Shown piece by piece: positions 3,389 to 62,353 of a DNA stretch of 64,000 nt (position 1 is its first letter; each line of letters begins with the position of its first letter). This DNA comes from Vicinamibacterales bacterium. Its GTDB lineage: Bacteria > Acidobacteriota > Vicinamibacteria > Vicinamibacterales > JAMQPK01. Location: positions 16,496 through 80,495 of the forward strand of contig DATEEI010000097.1 of assembly GCA_035281225.1 (NCBI GenBank), read 5' to 3'. Below the pieces are notes generated by a model, which made no database searches, was not told where the DNA came from, and was given only the letters and a program-made list of their open reading frames with translations. The position numbers were made by a program, and so were the translations under genes.

Positions 3389-4471
3389 ATGCTAAGAGTC
3401 GACGTCTCGGCCGGATCTCATCGCTATCCCATTTACATCGAACATGGCCTGACGGCGCAGATCGGCCGGCTCATCGCGCAGTCGCCAAGCCCGGCCTCGC
3501 GTCAGTTTTTCGTCTCGAGCCCGCTCGTGTGGAAGCTGCACGGGAAGGCGATGGCAAAGTCGGTGCCGAAGACCGAGCCGATCCTGCTTCCAGATGGGGA
3601 AAAGTTCAAGCAGCTCGGCACCGCCGCGCGCGCGTACGAATCGCTCATCAAGCTCGAGGCCGATCGCGGAGCGGGCATCATCGCCGTCGGCGGTGGCGTC
3701 ATCGGCGACATGGCGGGCTTCATCGCCGCGACCTACCTGCGCGGGGTCAAGCTGATCCACGTGCCAACGACATTGCTGGCGCAGGTGGACAGCGCCATCG
3801 GCGGCAAGGTGGGCGTGAACCATCCTCTCGGAAAGAACCTGATCGGCGCGTTCCATCACCCGGCGCTCGTCGCCATCGATCCGGCGTTCCTCGAAACGCT
3901 GCCACGGCGGGAGTTTCGCTCGGGCCTCTACGAGGTCATCAAATACGGGATGACCTCGAGCCGCGATCTGTTCGAGCGCATCGACCGAGACATGGATGCG
4001 ATCTTTGCGCGCAAGGCCGACGCGCTCGTGCCGATCATCGGCGAGTCGTGCTCCATCAAGGCCGCCGTCGTTGGACTCGATGAGCGCGAGGCCGGACCTC
4101 GCCGCATGCTGAATTTCGGCCATACCGCAGGCCATGCGCTCGAGGCCGTCACGAAGTACAAACGGTTCAGGCACGGCGAGGCGATCGCCTACGGCATGCT
4201 CGTCGCCGCCGAAATCGCGATCGCTCGCGGCGTGATGCCCAAGGCGGATCGACGCGCGCTGGGCCAGATCATCATGAAGCTCGGCCCGCTTCCTCCGGTC
4301 GGCGATCTGTCGATCCGCGACGTGCTAGGGGCCATGAAGCACGACAAGAAGGTCGTCGACGGCACGCTGCACTACGTGCTGTGCACCGGCATCGGCTCGT
4401 GGAAGACGGTGACGGATGTGACGGAGTCGGAGCTCGCGGCAGCGCTGAAGAAGACGGGGCTGAAGAAATGA
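3389..4471 (+). CDS. aroB: 3-dehydroquinate synthase
   Basis: 360 aa. Motifs GGGVIGDMAGFIAATYLRG, VPTTLLAQVDSAIGGKVGVN and HGEAIAYG (metal ligands) are typical AroB. Confidence 0.93.
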   Translation: MLRVDVSAGSHRYPIYIEHGLTAQIGRLIAQSPSPASRQFFVSSPLVWKLHGKAMAKSVPKTEPILLPDGEKFKQLGTAARAYESLIKLEADRGAGIIAVGGGVIGDMAGFIAATYLRGVKLIHVPTTLLAQVDSAIGGKVGVNHPLGKNLIGAFHHPALVAIDPAFLETLPRREFRSGLYEVIKYGMTSSRDLFERIDRDMDAIFARKADALVPIIGESCSIKAAVVGLDEREAGPRRMLNFGHTAGHALEAVTKYKRFRHGEAIAYGMLVAAEIAIARGVMPKADRRALGQIIMKLGPLPPVGDLSIRDVLGAMKHDKKVVDGTLHYVLCTGIGSWKTVTDVTESELAAALKKTGLKK

Positions 4472-4486
4472 CGCTGCGCCCCGCTG

Positions 4487-4619
4487 AGAGGGATGAGGGC
4501 AGAGGGCAGACGTGACCCTCCTGCTTGAAATTTTCGATGGGCGGGAATCGATACTTGAAATATCTGCGTACTCGGAGAGGTCTGGCAATTCGGATTCTGC
4601 CCTCTGCCCTCATCCCTCT
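4487..4619. repeat. perfect 24-bp inverted repeat (agagggatgagggcagagggcaga / tctgccctctgccctcatccctct) flanking an 85-bp core, between convergent genes
   Basis: Left arm 4487-4510 is the exact reverse complement of right arm 4596-4619. Both arms are built from GCCCTCT-type heptads. The element lies between the aroB stop (4471) and the regulator stop (4633). Confidence 0.85.
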
Positions 4620-4632
4620 GCCCTGTCAAAGA

Positions 4633-6012
4633 TCAGTTAATTCCGTACTCCTTCAGCTTCCCCAGCAGTGCCTTGAACTGAATCCCGAGAATATCGGCGG
4701 CTCTGCCTCGGTCGCCGCCGCCGTCCCTCATCGCCTGCTCAATTTTTCTCTTTTCCACTTCTGTCAGCGCCCGGCGTGTGACATCGGCCAAGGTGCCGGA
4801 CAAATCGAACGTCGCCCACGGGCTTGGGGGGCCGGCGACGACCTGCGCGTGCTGCGACAGGTTCAAGTGGCGCGAGTGAATCGAATCGGTCTCGGAGAGA
4901 ATGACCGCCCGCTCGATGCAATTCTGCAGCTCGCGCACGTTACCAGGCCACCCATACTGCTGAAGCTCGTCGATGGCCGACTGCGCCAGCGTGACGGGCT
5001 TCTTCATGTCACGGCTGAACCGTTCGACGAAGTGCCGCGCGAGAATGGGAATGTCTTCGGGGCGATCGCGAAGCGGTGGAATCGTGATCGGAAAGACCGA
5101 TAGGCGGAAATACAGATCTTCGCGGAACTGTTTCGCCGCCACGGCCGCCCGCAGACCCTTGTTGGTCGCCGCGACGATGCGCACGTCAACGTGCAGCGAG
5201 GCCGTGCCTCCGACCCGTTCGAAACGGCGCTCTTCGAGCGCCCGCAGAATCTTCGACTGCAATGAGAGCGGCAGATCGCCAATCTCATCCAAAAAGAGCG
5301 TGCCTCGGTGCGCGACCTCGAACTTCCCAAGCTTGCGGCCCACGGCGCCCGTGAACGCGCCTTTTTCATGACCAAAAAGCTCAGTCTCAAGAAGGTTGTC
5401 CGGAATTGCCGCGCAGTTGATCGCGACGAACGGACCGTCGGATCGGGTGCCAAGCGCGTGAAGCGCGCGCGCAAATAGTTCCTTTCCGGTTCCGCTCTCC
5501 CCTTCGAGCAAGACAGTTGCATCCGTCCCGGCTCCCCGCTGCAGCGAGACCACCGCCTGCTTGAGCGCACGTGACTCGCCGATGATGGTCGGAGCCCCTC
5601 GTCGGGAGGCAAGCTCCTCCTTGAGCAGGACGTACTCTGTCATCACGCGCCGCTGCTTGAGCGCACGTTCGACCATGAGCATCAGGTGATCCGGATCGAC
5701 GGGCTTTGCGAGAAAGTCGAGCGCACCTTCCTTCATCGCCGCCACCGCATCCTGAATACTGCCGTAGGCCGTCATCACGATAACGGGCAGCTCCGGATCC
5801 AGCTCCTTCGCCGCGCGCAGCACGCCAAATCCGTCGCCTTCGGGAAGCCGGAGATCGGTCAGCACGAGCGCCGGTCGATCGTCCTGCATCGCCTTGAGGG
5901 CCTCACGCTGGTCCCGGGCTTCCAAGACGGTATGGCCCTGGCCTTCGATGGCCAGCTTGAGCATGGTTCGGAGTGAGTCTTTGTCTTCGACGAGAAGAAT
6001 GGAGGGAGGCAC
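4633..6012 (-). CDS. sigma-54-dependent response regulator (NtrC/PilR2-like)
   Basis: 459 aa. Receiver domain (LVLTDLRLPEGDG), AAA+ Walker A GESGTGKE, the GAFTGA sigma-54 contact motif and a C-terminal HTH. It is the last gene of the minus-strand minor-pilin operon. Confidence 0.9.
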   Translation of the reverse strand: MPPSILLVEDKDSLRTMLKLAIEGQGHTVLEARDQREALKAMQDDRPALVLTDLRLPEGDGFGVLRAAKELDPELPVIVMTAYGSIQDAVAAMKEGALDFLAKPVDPDHLMLMVERALKQRRVMTEYVLLKEELASRRGAPTIIGESRALKQAVVSLQRGAGTDATVLLEGESGTGKELFARALHALGTRSDGPFVAINCAAIPDNLLETELFGHEKGAFTGAVGRKLGKFEVAHRGTLFLDEIGDLPLSLQSKILRALEERRFERVGGTASLHVDVRIVAATNKGLRAAVAAKQFREDLYFRLSVFPITIPPLRDRPEDIPILARHFVERFSRDMKKPVTLAQSAIDELQQYGWPGNVRELQNCIERAVILSETDSIHSRHLNLSQHAQVVAGPPSPWATFDLSGTLADVTRRALTEVEKRKIEQAMRDGGGDRGRAADILGIQFKALLGKLKEYGIN

Positions 6013-15691: not shown

Positions 15692-15726
15692 CGTCGATCG
15701 TCGATCGTCGATTGTCGATCGTCAGT
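15692..15726. repeat. heptad array cgtcgat x3, tgtcgat, cgtcagt, filling the whole pilD-kinase spacer
   Basis: Read directly. 7-bp period from the base after the kinase start codon (15689-15691) into the pilD stop codon (15722-15724). Confidence 0.85.
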
Positions 15727-28722: not shown

Positions 28723-28781
28723 GGTCCGGCTAAAGCCGGACACTACGAACATGGGTCCGGCTAAAGCCGGACACTACGAAC
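28723..28781. repeat. tandem 31-bp-period duplication of the pilS 3' end (28-bp unit ggtccggctaaagccggacactacgaac x2), each copy holding a hairpin
   Basis: Identical units at 28723-28750 and 28754-28781. On the minus strand each reads GTTCGTAGTGTCCGGCTTTAGCCGGACC (VRSVRL-stop) with stem GTCCGGC/GCCGGAC and loop TTTA. The pilS stop codon TAG spans the loop's last two nucleotides (TA) and the first G of the 3' stem arm. Confidence 0.9.
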
Positions 28782-44273: not shown

Positions 44274-47200
44274 TCATTCGACCAACGGCCGAATTGTCGC
44301 TCTCGAAACGAAGCGGCTTCGGTACTGCTCGGAAAGCGAACTTCGAATCTGCGCAATGAGCTTCGTGGCAGAGGAACGTTCGGTGGCAGCCGCGATCGTT
44401 TCTCCTCGCCGCGCGAGCGCCAATCCGCGCCAATAGTGCGCTTGCGCGTTCAACTCAGGCCCGACCGTCACGCTCCCGAGCTCTAACGTGCGGAGGACTT
44501 TGGCATATTGCCGCTCCTGAAACTCCTTCCGCGCCCGTTGGAGCGCGCACTCGGCCCGCACGTGAGCCTTATGGAAGGATCTCAACGCTGCTGACTCCAC
44601 ACCAAGATAACATTGAGCTACCAACGTGGCGGCGCCAGGTACATCTCTCACGGCTGACGCGACCGCGTGCTGAAAATGCGTTCGTGCGGCGTCGGGTGAT
44701 CCGGACTCCAAAGAGAGCTCACCGAATGATTCGTACAGCTGCGGCGCAAGCCTCATTGCTCCGGTCGACTCGACCTGCGCCAGCGCCTGTTCGAGATGCT
44801 GCTTCGCACCGTCAAAGTCTCCCAGACGAACGAGCACACGGCCCAACGTGATGTGCACCTCAGGGACGCTGCTGTCAGAGGCCAGTGCGTCCACGAGAAT
44901 CGTGCGAGCGCCCTCGTAGTCGCTCTGCAGAACCGCGACGTCCGCCGTAGTAACTCTGAGCAACGTCAGCCGGTTCTTCAGGTCACGTTCCGTCGCTATG
45001 CTCGTCGCCTTCTGCAGAATTCGCCGCGCCTCAGCTAGACGGCCTGAAGCCGCTTCGCTCTCACCCTGAACCTGCATCGCAAAGACCTCAAAATCCGCGT
45101 AGCCCAGCTTGCGGAACGTGGCGAGCGCATTCGTGAGACGATGTGTGACCTCGGCGGGATCGAGCCCGAGCACAATCTGCAAATTCACCGCAGTCACTTC
45201 AAGCTCCGCAGCGCGGCGCTCGTTGCCTATCTGTCGGTAGACATCCCGGCTGCGCTCGTAATACGCGACCGCCTCGGAAGTGCGACCCATCGCTTCCTGA
45301 GCAACGCCGAGATTCATCAAGGCGACTCCCTCCAGACGTCGGTTTCCCACCTGCACGCCGCGGGAGAGAGCCTCCTGAAATGACTGCGCTGCCGCCGGGT
45401 AATTGGGTTCCCGAGCGGCTGCCAATCCAAGGTACTGATGGATCCGGGCAAGCCCATACGGGTAACCGAGCGATCTAAAGATCTCGTGCGCTGTCTCTAT
45501 TTCCGCTCTTCCTGCCTTCAAATTGCGCTGTTGGAGAAGTGCGTCAGCGTGACACAGTAGCGCTTGCGCTTCGCCCCCCCGATTGCCGGAAGTACGAAAA
45601 GCCCTCAGCGCGATTTGTGCGTGTCGCTCCGAGAGCGGATAGTCATCGAGAAAGGCGTATAGCTGACAAAGATCGACGTGCACACGTCGGTATTCAGGAT
45701 CGACCGCAAGCACGCGATGGTACGCTTCGACGGCAGGCTCGTTCCGGTTTTGTCTCTTAAGAAAATCAGCAAGTTCAATTTGCAGAGAGGGATCGTCGGT
45801 ATGGAGGCCACTCAACTCGCGGTAGAAGTGCTCCGCGCTTGTGAGATTGTTCTGGCTCTCCGCAAGAACGGCAGCGGCAAGGACAGCGCTGGATCTCGGC
45901 GTGTGGGCGCCAACGAGCTGGGATCCCGCTCTCGCCGCAGCCTCCGCGCCTTTCAGATCGCCCAATAGAAGTGACGTCTTGCTCAGCCATATGTAACTGA
46001 GAACGCGTTGCCCATCCAGCTCAACCGCGCGCATGAACGCGGCACGCGCGGTGCCATACTCCAGCTGTTCGTAGGCGTTCGAGCCCTCCTCGAACGCTCG
46101 AGCGGCCTCAAGCGTCGGGAAGCGCGCGGCTTCCGCGTTGGTCGTCGGTGGCCGATGCGGCCAATTGAGCTTGAACTGCGCCTGAATCCGCGAGGCCAGC
46201 GCCACCATCAATCGCTGAGCCGTCTCTTGGGGCAACGCCGAGGTGATGGAGTCGGTTCGGACGGTGGCGATATTTGTTCCGGTCTCCACATTCCGTACCT
46301 CCGCTTCCGCAACCCACGCTCCGTCGCGGTACTCGAGCGCTGGAACGATCAGAAATCTCACCCTGGCATCGCGGGCGATGGCTTGAATCGCATCCCGGCC
46401 TGATATGTCGCCGGCGCCGAGCAGATATCCGCGAAGAGCCTCAAGCAGACGCGAGTAAGTGGTAACACGCAGATTTGGCGAGTCCCGGAGTTCCCCGATC
46501 AACGATTGAGTCAGGGTCAACCGATACGCATCCAGAGCGCGCTCACCCGTATGATTCGCCACCGGCACGATAGCGATCGGCGTGCGGGGCAATGGCCTGG
46601 CGAGCCAGAGATAACCAGCGGCTGCACCGATGGCGAGCACGGTCGCTGCCACCACCACCGCCATCGTTCGCGAGCCACGCCGTATTCTTCCCTCTGCCCT
46701 CTCCCCTCTCCCCTCTCCCCTCTTCCCTCTTCCCTCTTCCCTCTGCCCTCTTCCCTCTTCCCTCTGCCCTCCCCCCTCCACCAGCACCGCTTCCGTCCGC
46801 ATGTCGAGCGGCATGCTGCGCCCTTGCAGGTGCCGCAACGCGCGGCAGAGGTCTCTGGCGTTCTGATACCGCTCGGCCGGATCCTTGGCGAGCGCGCGCC
46901 GGACGATCGGCACGATACCTTCAGGGAGGTCCGGCACCGTATCATCGAGCGGCGCAGGCTCCTCATTCTTGATAGCGTAGAACACCGCTTCCGGATAGGA
47001 CCCCTTGAACGGGCCGCCGCCCGTCAGCATTTCGTAGAGCACGACGCCGAGCGCCCAGATATCGCTGCGCTCGTCGGCTTCCTCGCCCCGCGCCTGCTCC
47101 GGCGACATGTACGCGACCGTACCGATCGTCGATCCTTCGAGCGTCAGCTTGAGCGCCGCGTCTGCAAGCTTCGCGAGCCCGAAGTCCAGAATCTTCACGC

Positions 47201-47573
47201 CGTCTTCGGTGACCACGAGGTTGCTGGGCTTGATGTCGCGATGCACGACACCCTGCGAATGCGCCTTCGCCAATCCTTCGGCGATCTCCGCGGCGATCTC
47301 GACCGCCTCCGCGGCAGCCAGAGGGCCCTGCTCGAGCTTCTGCTTCAGCGTCGGCCCGTCATAGTGGGCCATCACGATGAACAGCTGTCCGTCCGCGGTC
47401 TGCTCGACGTCGTGAATGATGCAGATATTCCGGTGATTCGTCGCAGAGGCGGCTTGCGCCTCCCGAAGGAACCGCTGCTTGGCGCCGGCGTCGTGGCACC
47501 ACTGCGGTGGCAGAAATTTGAGGGCGACGGCGCGCTCGAGCTTCGTGTCGCGCGCCAGATACACGACTCCCAT
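44274..47573 (-). CDS. membrane Ser/Thr protein kinase with extracytoplasmic domain and TPR repeats
   Basis: HRDIKPSNLVV, DFGLAKL, YMSPEQ; a single TM helix MAVVVAATVLAIGAAAGYLWLA; then a TolB_N-like segment and more than 10 TPR-like repeats. The ATG at 47573 falls inside the Gly-loop (..GGGG-MGVVY), so the true start must be upstream (see findings). Confidence 0.88.
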   Translation of the reverse strand: MGVVYLARDTKLERAVALKFLPPQWCHDAGAKQRFLREAQAASATNHRNICIIHDVEQTADGQLFIVMAHYDGPTLKQKLEQGPLAAAEAVEIAAEIAEGLAKAHSQGVVHRDIKPSNLVVTEDGVKILDFGLAKLADAALKLTLEGSTIGTVAYMSPEQARGEEADERSDIWALGVVLYEMLTGGGPFKGSYPEAVFYAIKNEEPAPLDDTVPDLPEGIVPIVRRALAKDPAERYQNARDLCRALRHLQGRSMPLDMRTEAVLVEGGGQREEGRGQREEGRGKRGEGRGERAEGRIRRGSRTMAVVVAATVLAIGAAAGYLWLARPLPRTPIAIVPVANHTGERALDAYRLTLTQSLIGELRDSPNLRVTTYSRLLEALRGYLLGAGDISGRDAIQAIARDARVRFLIVPALEYRDGAWVAEAEVRNVETGTNIATVRTDSITSALPQETAQRLMVALASRIQAQFKLNWPHRPPTTNAEAARFPTLEAARAFEEGSNAYEQLEYGTARAAFMRAVELDGQRVLSYIWLSKTSLLLGDLKGAEAAARAGSQLVGAHTPRSSAVLAAAVLAESQNNLTSAEHFYRELSGLHTDDPSLQIELADFLKRQNRNEPAVEAYHRVLAVDPEYRRVHVDLCQLYAFLDDYPLSERHAQIALRAFRTSGNRGGEAQALLCHADALLQQRNLKAGRAEIETAHEIFRSLGYPYGLARIHQYLGLAAAREPNYPAAAQSFQEALSRGVQVGNRRLEGVALMNLGVAQEAMGRTSEAVAYYERSRDVYRQIGNERRAAELEVTAVNLQIVLGLDPAEVTHRLTNALATFRKLGYADFEVFAMQVQGESEAASGRLAEARRILQKATSIATERDLKNRLTLLRVTTADVAVLQSDYEGARTILVDALASDSSVPEVHITLGRVLVRLGDFDGAKQHLEQALAQVESTGAMRLAPQLYESFGELSLESGSPDAARTHFQHAVASAVRDVPGAATLVAQCYLGVESAALRSFHKAHVRAECALQRARKEFQERQYAKVLRTLELGSVTVGPELNAQAHYWRGLALARRGETIAAATERSSATKLIAQIRSSLSEQYRSRFVSRATIRPLVE
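46691..46781. repeat. 13 tandem heptads CCCTCTN inside the kinase CDS
   Basis: cctctgc cctctcc x3 cctcttc x3 cctctgc cctcttc x2 cctctgc cctcccc cctccac. Translated on the minus strand as GGGQREEGRGQREEGRGKRGEGRGERAEGR. Confidence 0.9.
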
Positions 47574-47740
47574 ACCGCCGCCGCCAAGTCTGGCGTCGAT
47601 GCGGTACTGCGCGATGGTGGTGCCGATTAGCGGGTCGTGAGGACTGTGGTGCAGGAGCGGTAGCCTAACACAGAGCTTGCCTTGCCGAATGTTGGAGGTA
47701 TGATCGCCGTTTATCCCTGACTTTCGGAGGACTCACGTCT

Positions 47741-52239: not shown

Positions 52240-52250
52240 TAATTGATCCT

Positions 52251-52285
52251 TCTCAGCTTCCAGCTGCCAGCTCTCAGCTGCCAGT
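52251..52285. repeat. heptad array tctcagc ttccagc tgccagc tctcagc tgccagt (rpsK-rpsD spacer)
   Basis: Read directly; 5 units with a 7-bp period. Confidence 0.85.
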
Positions 52286-52294
52286 GGAATTTAG

Positions 52295-52738: not shown

Positions 52739-52753
52739 CTGTTTCTTCGCTCC

Positions 52754-52830
52754 TAGCTACCAGCTACGAGCCACCAGCTACCAGCAGGTTCCAGCGAAAA
52801 CTGGAAGCTGGCAGCTGAAAGCTGGCAGCT
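52754..52830. repeat. heptad arrays tagctac cagctac gagccac cagctac cagcagg, then the inverted ctggaag ctggcag ctgaaag ctggcag (rpsM-rpsK spacer)
   Basis: Read directly. Central perfect hairpin ttccag-cgaaaa-ctggaa at 52789-52806. Confidence 0.85.
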
Positions 52831-53203: not shown

Positions 53204-53213
53204 AACTCTTTGT

Positions 53214-53255
53214 CCTCGACTGTCGACTGTCGACTACCGACTGCCGACTGTTAAC
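53214..53255. repeat. heptad array cctcgac tgtcgac tgtcgac taccgac tgccgac tgttaac (rpmJ-rpsM spacer)
   Basis: Read directly. The last unit contains the rpmJ stop codon (53251-53253). Confidence 0.85.
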
Positions 53256-53364
53256 CCTGCCTCTGCTTGTGTTTCTGGTTCGAGCAGATTACGCGAACCA
53301 CTCCGCGCCGGCGGACGATCTTGCACTTATCGCAGATGCGCTTGACTGACGCTCGTACCTTCAT
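53251..53364 (-). CDS. rpmJ: 50S ribosomal protein L36
   Basis: Not in the ORF track (37 aa). Manual translation gives [37 protein letters not shown], with the CxxC..C..H zinc ribbon. The 5' 38 nt overlap the map 3' end. Confidence 0.92.
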
Positions 53365-57835: not shown

Positions 57836-57845
57836 AGTCTGTTCG

Positions 57846-57901
57846 CTCTTGGCTCTAGGCTTTGGGCTCTCGGCCTTGGGCCTGCCCTCATCCCTCTGCC
57901 C
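57846..57901. repeat. eight-unit heptad array ctcttgg ctctagg ctttggg ctctcgg ccttggg cctgccc tcatccc tctgccc (rplF-rplR spacer)
   Basis: Read directly. The last 20 nt (gccctcatccctctgccct) repeat the motif of 4600-4626. Confidence 0.85.
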
Positions 57902-58440
57902 TACTTGGTTCCCGTCTTGCCGGCTTTCTTCTTCAGCACTTCGCCGGTGAAGCGCACGCCCTTCTGCTTGTAGGGATCCGGTTGGCGCAGTCGGCGGATG
58001 TTGGCGGCGACCTGCCCCACCAACTGGCGATCAACGCCGGTGACGGTGATGTGCGTCTGCTTATCGATCACGATGTCGATGCCGGGCGGTACGTCGAACA
58101 CGACCGGATGCGAGTAGCCGAGCGCAAAGACGACCTGCTTGCCGCGCAGCTCAGCACGATAGCCGACGCCGACGATGTCGAGCTCGCGCTTGAACCCTTC
58201 GGTCACACCGAGCACACCGTTGGCAGCGAGGCTGCGCGCGAGGCCGTGGAACTTGCCGAGCTCGGGATCCTCGCGCGTAAGCGCGGCCTTGAGCTGGCCG
58301 TCGACAACCTCGAAGGCGATGCCCGGCGGAATCCGCTGCGTCAGCTTGCCTTTCGGTCCCTGAATATCCAGCGCGTCCGGGTTCACCTTGACGGTGACGC
58401 CCTTGGGCAGCGCGATCGGTTTTTTACCAATACGTGACAT
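57901..58440 (-). CDS. rplF: 50S ribosomal protein L6
   Basis: [19 protein letters not shown].., 179 aa. Confidence 0.96.
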
Positions 58441-58445
58441 GTTTT

Positions 58446-58473
58446 TTCAGCTCTCAGCTACCGGCTCAACAGT
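58446..58473. repeat. heptad array ttcagct ctcagct accggct caacagt (rpsH-rplF spacer)
   Basis: Read directly; 4 units. Confidence 0.75.
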
Positions 58474-58892: not shown

Positions 58893-58925
58893 GTGTTGGT
58901 TCTCTACTCGTTCACTGTTTCTGTT

Positions 58926-58999
58926 CCAGCCGGTAGCTTGTAGCTCGTAGCCTGTAGCGAGCCTTTCCTACCGCCTACCAGCTACCACCTACCAACTAC
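58926..58999. repeat. heptad arrays gtagctt gtagctc gtagcct gtagcga, then the inverted ctaccgc ctaccag ctaccac ctaccaa (rpsN-rpsH spacer)
   Basis: Read directly. About 11 units in strict 7-bp register; GTAGC and CTACC(GCTAC)-type halves face each other. Confidence 0.85.
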
Positions 59000-60061: not shown

Positions 60062-60128
60062 ACCGTCTACCGTTTGCCGTTTACTGTTTGCCGTTCGGTG
60101 AACGGTGAACTGTCAACGGTGAACTAAC
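60062..60128. repeat. heptad arrays accgtct accgttt gccgttt actgttt gccgttc, then the inverted ggtgaac ggtgaac tgtcaac ggtgaac (rplN-rplX spacer)
   Basis: Read directly. Central hairpin ccgttc-ggt-gaacgg. Confidence 0.85.
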
Positions 60129-61555: not shown

Positions 61556-61583
61556 AATCCCTAGTCCCGAATCACCAATCCCT
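61556..61583. repeat. heptad array aatccct agtcccg aatcacc aatccct (end of the rpsC-rplP spacer)
   Basis: Read directly. The 11-mer aatcaccaatc also occurs at 3365-3375. Confidence 0.7.
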
Positions 61584-62286: not shown

Positions 62287-62295
62287 AGCAGCTCC

Positions 62296-62353
62296 TCGTT
62301 ACTTCTTACTTCTTACTTCTTACTTCCCACTTCTTACTTTTCGTGCTTCTTAC
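62296..62353. repeat. heptad array tcgttac ttcttac x3 ttcccac ttcttac ... ttcttac (rplV-rpsC spacer, extending into the rplV 3' end)
   Basis: Read directly. The unit containing tta (62334-62336) supplies the rplV stop codon, and the array continues about 17 nt into the coding sequence (..KSKKHEK). Confidence 0.85.

What the first reader, a model, noticed from the sequence alone, without database searches (positions are those of the whole stretch)
46691..46781. Thirteen tandem CCCTCTN heptads inside the coding sequence of the 1099-aa Ser/Thr kinase
The 91-bp array is cctctgc cctctcc x3 cctcttc x3 cctctgc cctcttc x2 cctctgc cctcccc cctccac. It lies in the cytoplasmic linker between the kinase domain and the single TM helix, and is translated as GGGQREEGRGQREEGRGKRGEGRGERAEGR.

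**Frame effect.** The unit length is not a multiple of 3. Gain or loss of 1 or 2 units would frameshift and detach the kinase domain from its TM and TPR sensor part. Changes of 3 units add or remove one 7-aa repeat. That makes this a possible slipped-strand contingency locus, although the units are imperfect; the longest identical runs are 3 units.

**G-quadruplex potential.** On the sense (mRNA) strand the array is (GGGNNNN)n with 13 G3+ tracts, a strong formal G-quadruplex motif.

**Link to the spacers.** The motif belongs to the same family as the intergenic arrays at 4487-4626 and 57881-57901. This suggests an intergenic-type element was captured in frame.
Basis: partly seen in the sequence, partly recalled or inferred. 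Interest (0 to 1): 0.7.

Follow-up and report, generated by a model that had tools for sequence, protein, structure and literature searches.

The report
Seven-base repeat inside kinase linker
A 91-base run of thirteen 7-base repeats really does lie inside a soil bacterium's receptor kinase gene, but it looks like an ordinary slippage-made microsatellite tolerated in a floppy linker, not a programmed on/off switch.

Summary
Window 46691-46781 holds 13 tandem CCCTCNN units (GAGGGNN on the sense strand), the strongest tandem repeat in the window. It lies in a minus-strand Hanks-type Ser/Thr kinase gene of a Vicinamibacterales MAG.

- **Location.** It encodes EGGGQREEGRGQREEGRGKRGEGRGERAEGR, an unstructured segment (pLDDT <50) between the kinase domain and the single TM helix.
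- **A DNA-level repeat.** All Arg and Gly codons in it are the genome's rare AGR and GGR codons. It contains an exact 21-nt in-frame duplication.
- **Orthologs.** Syntenic orthologs carry 0 to 13 units anchored at the same codon, always in frame and mostly degenerate.
- **Strains.** Strains 99.6-99.9% identical keep their 5-6-unit arrays unchanged.
- **OFF alleles.** No database protein matches the out-of-frame tails.
- **Background.** This genome and its relatives fill intergenic spacers with period-7 arrays.

The array belongs to the known class of heptanucleotide long SSRs. The closest case is the G-rich GGGNATC repeats of Xanthomonas and Nostoc.

The contingency-locus and "captured element" readings are unsupported. 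The G4 motif survives in only 2 of 6 array-bearing lineages. Read-level variation at this 13-unit tract could not be tested.

Verdict: new member of a known kind, low to moderate interest.

The parts
46691..46781 (-). Heptanucleotide SSR of 13 units. It reads GAGGGNN on the sense (minus) strand and CCCTCNN on the plus strand. It encodes EGGGQREEGRGQREEGRGKRGEGRGERAEGR.
46726..46767 (-). Exact 21-nt (3-unit, 7-aa) tandem duplication inside the array: 46726-46746 equals 46747-46767, giving GQREEGR twice. This is the footprint of an in-frame expansion step.
   Evidence: Read directly from the sequence; peptide.
44274..47654 (-). Receptor-type Hanks Ser/Thr kinase gene: kinase, linker, TM helix, alpha/beta domain, TPR solenoid. 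The probable start is the conserved CTG at 47654 (1126 aa). The first ATG is at 47573 (1099 aa).
   Evidence: identical to HKY22318.1 (Vicinamibacterales MAG)
46863..47606 (-). Protein kinase domain (Pfam PF00069, aa 17-264 of the 1126-aa product).
46665..46796 (-). Unstructured juxtamembrane linker (aa 287-330, pLDDT <50, no secondary structure). It contains the array.
46602..46667 (-). Single predicted transmembrane helix (aa 330-351).
4487..4510 (+). Sibling intergenic GGG-heptad array (GAGGGAT GAGGGCA GAGGGCA). It lies 16 nt after the stop of the + gene 3389-4471 and forms the left arm of an inverted pair.
4596..4626 (-). Sibling intergenic GGG-heptad array just after the stop of the minus gene 4633-6012. 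It is the right arm of the inverted pair, which folds into a 24-bp stem.
57881..57903 (-). Sibling intergenic GGG-heptad array abutting and overlapping the stop codon (57901-57903) of the minus gene 57901-58440. It shares the core AGAGGGATGAGGGCAG with the other two.

Best explanation
The array is an ordinary long simple-sequence repeat with a 7-nt unit. It was made and is remodelled by replication slippage in a lineage (Vicinamibacterales) whose genomes readily generate period-7 arrays.

It persists inside this gene because it sits in a disordered, sequence-tolerant juxtamembrane linker of a receptor Ser/Thr kinase. Three units make 21 nt, or 7 aa, and all three frames of (GAGGGAA)n encode the same Gly/Arg/Glu-rich peptide. 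Selection therefore removes out-of-frame length changes and passes in-frame ones, so orthologs differ by whole codons.

The protein-level consequence is a variable-length, charged, flexible spacer. The G4 motif, the rare-codon run and the Shine-Dalgarno-like GAGG motifs are by-products.

Shown here: the anatomy, the DNA-level origin, the variation among orthologs, the stability among strains and the genome-wide period-7 background. Inferred: the slippage mechanism, the purifying filter on frame and the lack of a dedicated function.
For: 1. **Unstructured linker.** aa 287-330 have pLDDT <50 and no secondary structure, flanked by a confident kinase domain and TM helix.
2. **Codon choice follows the DNA repeat.** 8 of 8 Arg codons are AGA/AGG, against 10% elsewhere in the window. 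11 of 11 Gly codons are GGA/GGG, against 34%.
3. **In-frame expansion step.** There is an exact 21-nt tandem duplication inside the array.
4. **Ortholog variation.** Syntenic orthologs carry the array at the same codon with about 13, 9, 6, 5, 5, 5 or 0 units, all in frame and mostly degenerate. Array-bearing and array-less orthologs are interleaved on an NJ tree, so the array is dispensable and labile over long times.
5. **Period-7 background.** 15 of 17 TRF period-7 arrays in the window are intergenic and have many different units. Period-7 self-identity in short spacers is 0.4-0.9. Relatives L007 and L008 show the same.
6. **Widespread motif.** One lies in the inter-domain linker of an ABC-F ATPase in Granulicella.
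7. **Literature.** Heptanucleotide units are the commonest long SSR class in many large, GC-rich genomes, and polymerase slippage was proposed as the cause (Mrazek 2007 as summarised in PMC4679880 and PMC4692102). G-rich GGGNATC heptamer arrays in Xanthomonas and Nostoc show the same stop-codon-proximal, coding-strand and inverted-pair habits as the sibling arrays here (PMC4692102).
Against: - This tract is by far the longest and purest of the orthologous set (13 units, 92% matches). It has therefore expanded recently and could be far more mutable than the 5-6-unit arrays that looked stable.
- No population or read data exist for it. The only second assembly, L009, is 100% identical over 23.3 kb and probably comes from the same data.
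- The array recurs or persists at one codon across lineages with 54-73% aa identity. That could reflect some selected role for the peptide or the nucleic acid rather than pure tolerance.
- The published studies cited here (PMC4692102, PMC4679880) report that non-triplet G-rich repeats are under-represented on the coding strand, so this case is unusual.
Confidence: 0.7

Rival explanations
1. Contingency (phase-variation) locus. Slipped-strand gain or loss of 1-2 units reversibly frameshifts the gene. Subpopulations then make a soluble ~340-aa kinase detached from its membrane sensor, or effectively no receptor. This would be a bet-hedging switch.
For: - The unit length is not a multiple of 3.
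- A simulated change of 1 or 2 units gives 338-356-aa products that end before the TM helix, while a change of 3 units is in frame.
- 13 units is long.
- Intragenic heptanucleotide tracts with out-of-frame alleles are known in H. influenzae: (AACAACC)8-13 in an HI1369 homologue and (AATTTTG)14 in hmw1A (PMC2651432).
Against: - The tract is imperfect, with at most 3 identical units in a row.
- It lies 265 codons into the ORF rather than near the 5' end.
- Orthologous arrays are degenerate, which is unexpected if mutability were selected.
- Two sets of strains at 99.6-99.9% nt identity show zero indels across 4.4-4.9 kb, including their arrays.
- No protein among 5.8 billion matches any out-of-frame tail of five lineages.
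- The gene is a housekeeping-type signalling kinase in conserved synteny next to EF-G, not a surface antigen or R-M gene.
- The strain and tail tests have low power for this particular tract.
Confidence: 0.1
2. Functional nucleic-acid element. The sense-strand (GGGNNNN)13 would fold into RNA or DNA G-quadruplexes. Alternatively, its run of rare AGR/GGR codons and 18 Shine-Dalgarno-like GAGG/GGAG/AGGA motifs would slow ribosomes just before the TM segment is translated, tuning expression or co-translational membrane targeting.
For: - There are 13 G3+ tracts with 4-nt loops.
- ViennaRNA with G4 energies predicts three stacked three-layer quadruplexes, -63.5 against -23.0 kcal/mol without G4.
- Related heptamer repeats form G4 in vitro (PMC4692102).
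- The array is 96% purine, uses only rare Arg codons, and ends about 7 codons before the TM helix.
Against: - Only WIN and L002 keep at least 4 G3 tracts. L001, L003, L004 and L007 do not, and many close orthologs lack the array altogether.
- Composition-matched shuffles fold almost as well with G4 allowed, -51 +/- 14 kcal/mol.
- G4 motifs are not enriched in the window, 5 against 9.9 +/- 3.6 in shuffles.
- There is no Rfam match.
Confidence: 0.08
3. An intergenic-type dispersed element, of the GGG-heptad family seen after stop codons at 4487, 4596 and 57881, was inserted or copied into the gene and captured in frame.
For: - The unit family is the same. GAGGGCA occurs both in the intergenic copies and in the coding array.
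- The three intergenic copies share an identical 16-23-nt core, which suggests copying.
- All are G-rich on the sense strand.
Against: - The coding array begins at the same codon (V/I/T-GAG-GGN-AGA) in lineages as distant as 54% aa identity. Any capture would be ancient and followed by in-situ evolution.
- The diagnostic GAGGGAT unit of the intergenic copies is absent from the coding array.
- No terminal repeats or target-site duplications flank it.
- The shared intergenic core was not found in any other fetched locus.
Confidence: 0.05
4. Assembly artefact: the unit number was mis-assembled in a short-read MAG.
For: The source is a metagenome-assembled genome (MEGAHIT-style k141 contig names).
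Against: - The array is 91 bp, shorter than the k=141 suggested by the 'k141_' contig name, and presumably shorter than the reads (inference; read length not known).
- The ORF stays open through it.
- Homologous arrays appear in independent assemblies from other samples.
Confidence: 0.02

Closest known systems
G-rich heptameric, quadruplex-forming SSRs, GGGNATC in Xanthomonas and GGGGA(C/T)T in Nostoc (Rehm et al. 2015, PMC4692102)
   Same: - 7-nt unit with a G3 tract and a 4-nt loop.
- 2-26 units, with length and sequence varying between related genomes at the same locus.
- The sibling arrays here lie within 50 bp of stop codons on the coding strand and occur as convergent inverted pairs, as described for Xanthomonas.
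- No function is known.
   Different: - The unit sequence is GAGGGNN rather than GGGAATC.
- The host is Acidobacteriota.
- This copy lies in a CDS on the coding strand, the class reported as under-represented there (7-11% intragenic).
- This genome carries many unrelated, non-G-rich heptamer units as well.
Long simple sequence repeats with heptanucleotide units (Mrazek, Guo and Shah 2007; summarised in PMC4679880 and PMC4692102)
   Same: - Tandem 7-nt units longer than chance.
- Typical of large, GC-rich, non-pathogen genomes.
- Mostly intergenic.
- The proposed origin is polymerase slippage with a 7-nt preference.
   Different: That survey found coding repeats to be mainly multiples of 3. Here a non-triplet unit survives in a CDS because 3 units restore the frame and every frame encodes the same peptide.
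SSR contingency loci, for example the intragenic heptanucleotide tracts of H. influenzae: (AACAACC)n in an HI1369 homologue and (AATTTTG)14 in hmw1A (Power et al. 2009, PMC2651432)
   Same: An intragenic 7-nt unit whose gain or loss shifts the frame and truncates the product.
   Different: Those tracts are perfect, differ between strains and include out-of-frame alleles, and they sit in surface or uptake genes of a host-adapted pathogen. Here the tract is imperfect, no out-of-frame allele was found, and the short orthologous arrays are stable between strains.
Cyanobacterial STRR heptamers and the TAACTGA intergenic repeats of Beggiatoaceae (MacGregor 2015, PMC4679880)
   Same: Heptamer direct repeats fill the short spacers just upstream of start codons, including in ribosomal-protein operons. 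The non-G-rich arrays of this window do the same at 52-62 kb.
   Different: Those systems use one or a few specific heptamers genome-wide, which suggests a binding protein. This window uses many different units. That points to a length-specific mutational process rather than a sequence-specific site.

Membership tests
Heptanucleotide long SSR (LSSR sensu Mrazek 2007) | Head-to-tail tandem copies of a 7-nt unit | tested here: met
   TRF gives period 7, 12.3 copies, 92% matches and 0% indels. The 13 units were also read directly.
Heptanucleotide long SSR (LSSR sensu Mrazek 2007) | Total length beyond what the genome's composition gives by chance | tested here: met
   15 pattern matches against 0.01 expected in dinucleotide-preserving shuffles. 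TRF score 130 is the highest in the window.
G-rich quadruplex-forming heptamer repeats (Rehm 2015) | At least 4 consecutive units, each with an intact G3 tract and a short loop | tested here: met
   13 G3+ tracts with 4-nt loops, forming an 87-nt G4 motif at 46690-46776 on the minus strand.
G-rich quadruplex-forming heptamer repeats (Rehm 2015) | G4 actually forms (K+-dependent CD signature) | not testable with these tools
   Only a prediction is available: -63.5 kcal/mol with G4 against -23.0 without. Same-composition shuffles give -51 +/- 14.
G-rich quadruplex-forming heptamer repeats (Rehm 2015) | [quoted passage not shown] | tested here: not met
   This array is intragenic on the coding strand. 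The three sibling arrays at 4487, 4596 and 57881 do meet the feature.
SSR contingency / phase-variation locus | Unit not a multiple of 3, placed so that a unit change abolishes the full-length product | tested here: met
   A change of 1 or 2 units gives 338-356 aa ending before the TM helix. A change of 3 units gives 1092 or 1106 aa in frame.
SSR contingency / phase-variation locus | Long perfect (uninterrupted) tract conferring high slippage rates | tested here: not met
   At most 3 identical units in a row. Four unit variants are interleaved.
SSR contingency / phase-variation locus | Unit number differs between closely related strains or reads, including out-of-frame (OFF) alleles | tested here: inconclusive
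   - The orthologous 5-6-unit arrays are invariant among strains 99.6-99.9% identical.
- No protein matches the out-of-frame tails.
- For the 13-unit tract only one population is available, with identical assemblies.
Hanks-type receptor Ser/Thr kinase (host gene) | Pkinase domain with catalytic HRD and DFG motifs, a single TM helix and an extracytoplasmic sensor region | tested here: met
   PF00069 at 2.6e-45 plus TPR families. HRDIKPSN and DFG are in the translation. The AF2 model has mean pLDDT 87.4 with a TM helix at 330-351.

The most novel reading that the evidence does not exclude
The 13-unit tract is a genuine slipped-strand switch in a free-living soil acidobacterium. It would reversibly uncouple a conserved receptor kinase from its membrane/TPR sensor, producing a soluble, unregulated kinase domain in a subpopulation. 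That would be phase variation of a signalling protein rather than a surface antigen, possibly with G4 formation on the lagging-strand template raising the slippage rate.
Probability: 0.08. Interest if true: 0.7.

Novelty: new member of a known kind. Interest (0 to 1): 0.3.

Why it matters
If the ordinary reading holds, the locus is mainly a clean illustration. A lineage-wide bias towards 7-nt slippage can plant a non-triplet microsatellite inside an essential-looking gene. Selection on reading frame then turns it into a variable-length peptide spacer, with 0 to 13 units at one codon across orthologs. That is useful for annotation: such tracts in Acidobacteriota MAGs need not be flagged as errors or pseudogenes. 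It also offers a natural marker of strain divergence.

It would matter more if deep sequencing showed out-of-frame subpopulations. Phase variation of a signalling kinase in a soil bacterium would be new.

Tried and rejected
1. **Strain-level variants of the 13-unit tract.** The protein-cluster look-up found only an identical NCBI copy, HKY22318.1, with a different start call. The ENA contig L009 is 100% identical over 23.3 kb. The JGI metagenome scan found nothing closer than 60% over full length. No population information came out of this.
2. **Search for OFF alleles.** I queried 5.8 billion proteins with concatenated out-of-frame tails of five lineages and got no hit. This is negative but has low power.
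3. **Internal re-initiation after the array.** An ATG (M303) lies about 25 nt past the last GAGGG, and the Met is not conserved in orthologs. Rejected.
4. **Known RNA family.** No Rfam hit on either strand at E<=1.
5. **Shared intergenic core in relatives.** AGAGGGATGAGGGCAG has no match in 165 fetched loci.
6. **G4 enrichment.** Not found in the window.
7. **Coding versus intergenic census.** My crude census of GAGGGNN x4 arrays in other genomes relies on stop-to-stop ORFs. In high-GC DNA this over-calls coding. Two long "sense ORFs" (L068, L082) had no Pfam domain and are probably spurious. Only the Granulicella ABC-F case is solid.
8. **H-DNA/triplex potential.** Considered by eye for the 96%-purine tract. 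The mirror symmetry is imperfect, so I did not pursue it.
Full report
**1. What is there**

Tandem Repeats Finder reports 46686-46771 with period 7, 12.3 copies, 92% matches, no indels and score 130. That is the highest-scoring tandem repeat in the 64 kb. A three-unit pattern (GAGGGNN x2 + GAGGG, up to 1 mismatch) matches 15 times, against 0.01 expected from dinucleotide-preserving shuffles.

Eleven of those matches tile this array. The other four mark three intergenic sites: 4488-4506 on the + strand, 4600-4625 on the minus strand and 57885-57903 on the minus strand.

The array lies in the minus-strand ORF 44274-47573, so the mRNA-sense strand reads (GAGGGNN)13. Inside the array, units 6-8 and 9-11 (46726-46746 and 46747-46767) are an exact 21-nt tandem duplication that encodes GQREEGR twice.

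**2. The host gene**

- Pfam finds a protein kinase domain (PF00069, E 2.6e-45, aa 17-264) and many TPR families across roughly aa 530-1000.
- The protein is identical to HKY22318.1, "protein kinase [Vicinamibacterales bacterium]", from a MAG contig of 222 kb.
- An AlphaFold2 model built on 50 homologues has mean pLDDT 87.4. Only three stretches fall below pLDDT 50: the N-terminal 6 residues, the activation-loop region 159-177, and 287-330.
- The 287-330 stretch has no secondary structure and contains the array-encoded peptide. It is followed directly by a helix at 330-351, the hydrophobic TM segment.

**3. The repeat is a DNA-level object, not a peptide repeat**

All 8 Arg codons in the array are AGA or AGG, which make up 10% of Arg codons elsewhere in the window's genes. 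All 11 Gly codons are GGA or GGG, against 34% elsewhere. The sense strand is 96% purine and cannot form hairpins. The codon choice is dictated by the heptad.

**4. Orthologs**

A protein search found full-length relatives in Vicinamibacterales and other Acidobacteriota. I fetched DNA for six lineages. They share synteny: a divergent EF-G gene upstream, then a ~118-aa ORF, a second small kinase and a sigma-70 gene downstream.

At the same codon, straight after a V, I or T that follows the conserved QGRSxPxDxRTE motif, the sense strand reads as follows:

| Locus | Protein, aa identity | Units at the site |
|---|---|---|
| Window | - | 13 units |
| L001 | P0002, 73% | GAGGGCA x3 plus 2 decayed units |
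| L002 | P0004, 60% | 6 units |
| L003 | P0005, 60% | about 5 decayed units |
| L004-L006 | P0006, 60% | 5 decayed units |
| L007 | P0019, 54% | about 9 barely recognisable period-7 units |
| L008 | P0003, 67% | none |

All are in frame, and all use AGR for Arg. Other relatives in the same identity range (P0008-P0015) have ordinary non-repetitive linkers.

On a neighbour-joining tree the array-bearing and array-less proteins are interleaved. The array has therefore been lost, decayed or re-expanded several times and is dispensable. The window's copy is the longest and purest, which implies recent expansion.

**5. Tests of hypermutability**

- **Frame arithmetic.** Adding or removing 1 or 2 units gives products of 338-356 aa that end before the TM helix. 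A change of 3 units gives 1092 or 1106 aa in frame.
- **Strain set L002, L010, L045.** These come from three samples and differ by 3-19 substitutions over 4.6-4.9 kb. They have no gaps and identical 6-unit arrays.
- **Strain set L004, L005, L006.** These differ by 9-12 substitutions over 4.4-5.3 kb. They have no gaps and identical 5-unit arrays.
- **OFF-allele search.** A 583-aa query made of the out-of-frame tails that OFF alleles of five lineages would produce found no protein among 5.8 billion.
- **The 13-unit tract itself.** The only other assembly, L009, is 100% identical over 23.3 kb. The JGI metagenome scan found no close relative.

The short orthologous arrays are not hypermutable. The long one remains untested at read level.

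**6. G-quadruplex**

The sense strand holds 13 G3+ tracts with 4-nt loops. ViennaRNA with quadruplex energies predicts stacked G4s at -63.5 kcal/mol, against -23.0 without G4. Shuffles of the same composition reach -51 +/- 14. G4 motifs are not enriched in the window, at 5 against 9.9 +/- 3.6.

Among orthologs, only the window and L002 keep at least 4 G3 tracts. G4 formation is plausible chemically, since related heptamers form G4 in vitro (PMC4692102). It is not a conserved property of this site.

**7. Genomic background**

- **Position of period-7 arrays.** Of 17 TRF period-7 arrays in the window, 15 lie in spacers between my crude gene calls.
- **Spacers they fill.** They occupy the short intercistronic spacers of the ribosomal-protein/SecY operon at 52-62 kb, the 30-nt spacer at 15692-15721, and the convergent spacer at 4472-4632.
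- **Many different units.** Examples are CAGCTGC, AGCTACC, TCGACTG, CGTCGAT, TTACTTC, CCGTTTG and CGGTGAA.
- **Period-7 self-identity.** It is 0.4-0.9 in these spacers, against 0.25 in coding DNA.
- **Relatives.** L007 and L008 show the same habit with yet other units at orthologous spacers.

A length-specific mutational propensity explains this better than a sequence-specific element does.

The three intergenic GGG-heptad arrays lie within about 16 nt of a stop codon (one overlaps it). Each has its G-rich strand on the sense strand of the gene it follows. Two of them form a convergent inverted pair that folds into a 24-bp stem (-76.7 kcal/mol, z = -5.3).

**8. Comparison with what is known**

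- **Mrazek et al. 2007.** As summarised in PMC4679880 and PMC4692102, they found heptanucleotide units to be the most abundant long SSR class in many genomes, especially large GC-rich ones. They proposed that 7 nt matches the DNA segment held by the polymerase, which would favour slippage.
- **Rehm et al. 2015 (PMC4692102).** They described GGGNATC and GGGGA(C/T)T arrays in Xanthomonas and Nostoc. These have 2-26 units and are about 90% intergenic. [quoted passage not shown] They vary in length between related genomes, form G4 in vitro, are under-represented on the coding strand of ORFs, and have no demonstrated function. The sibling arrays here fit that description closely. The kinase array is the rare coding-strand case.
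- **Distribution of the motif.** Hits came from Acidobacteriota, Gemmatimonadota, Planctomycetota, Verrucomicrobiota, Cyanobacteria, Myxococcota, Actinomycetota and others. One 4-unit copy lies, sense-oriented, in the linker between the second ABC domain and the C-terminal domain of a Granulicella ABC-F ATPase.
- **True intragenic heptanucleotide phase-variation candidates.** The H. influenzae examples (PMC2651432) are perfect tracts with strain-to-strain out-of-frame alleles in surface or uptake genes. None of that is seen here.

**9. Verdict**

The most likely explanation, at about 0.7, is an ordinary heptanucleotide SSR produced by slippage in a lineage prone to period-7 arrays. It is tolerated in a disordered juxtamembrane linker because three units restore the frame and every frame gives the same Gly/Arg/Glu peptide. 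Only in-frame (21-nt) changes survive.

| Rival reading | Confidence |
|---|---|
| Contingency locus | about 0.1 |
| Functional G4 or translational pause | about 0.08 |
| Captured intergenic element | about 0.05 |
| Assembly artefact | about 0.02 |

This is a new member of a known kind, of low to moderate interest. The decisive missing datum is read-level length heterogeneity at this tract.

Noticed in passing
window 47573-47735 (minus strand); L001, L002/L045, L003, L004-L006 upstream of the called starts: The kinase has no ATG, GTG or TTG upstream of its Gly-rich loop. Even so, the in-frame upstream peptide (L)HHSPHDPLIGTTVAQYRIDARLGGGG is conserved in the window and four ortholog lineages. 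A CTG codon sits at the same position in all of them (window 47654-47652), with a stop 4 codons upstream in the orthologs. A conserved CTG initiation codon is likely, giving a 1126-aa product. Gene callers chose ATG 47573 (1099 aa, lacking strand beta-1 and the G-loop) or ATA 47714 (1146 aa, NCBI). L008 instead has ATG at the 'LIG' position.
   Followed up: partly
window 15692-15721, 52240-52294, 52739-52828, 53204-53266, 57836-57900, 58441-58472, 58893-58988, 60070-60124, 61558-61581, 62287-62333; L007 1351-1382, 2502-2617, 15746-15807, 17264-17291; L008 2652-2782, 10931-10982: Short intercistronic spacers, especially in the ribosomal-protein/SecY operon, consist almost wholly of period-7 tandem arrays with many different unit sequences. 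Some are adjacent inverted pairs. Relatives have different units at the orthologous spacers. This is a lineage-wide heptamer-SSR habit, comparable to cyanobacterial STRRs and the Beggiatoaceae TAACTGA repeats, but it is not tied to one unit.
   Followed up: partly
window 4472-4632: Between two convergent genes, two GGG-heptad arrays in inverted orientation flank about 85 nt and fold into a hairpin with a 24-bp perfect stem (-76.7 kcal/mol, z = -5.3). The three intergenic GGG-heptad copies (4488+, 4600-, 57885-) share the exact core AGAGGGATGAGGGCAG, which suggests copying rather than independent slippage. Rfam gives only sub-threshold miRNA-like hairpin hits.
   Followed up: partly
window 28723-28781: There is a perfect 31-nt tandem duplication (1.9 copies, TRF score 118) of GGTCCGGCTAAAGCCGGACACTACGAACATG in the 52-nt spacer between two minus-strand genes. 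Each copy contains the small hairpin GTCCGGC-TAAA-GCCGGAC.
   Followed up: no
L100 6992-7017 (Granulicella MAG chromosome OZ240667.1): A 4-unit GAGGGNN array lies sense-oriented inside an ABC-F type ATPase (two ABC_tran domains plus ABC_tran_CTD). It encodes ...ARGREEGGGKRED... in the linker before the C-terminal domain. This is a second case of this heptad family tolerated in an inter-domain linker.
   Followed up: partly
window, whole: Canonical G4 motifs (G3+N1-7 x4) are fewer than in block-shuffled sequence: 5, all on the minus strand, against 9.9 +/- 3.6. GC skew is negative on the + strand across the whole window, and most genes are on the minus strand.
   Followed up: no
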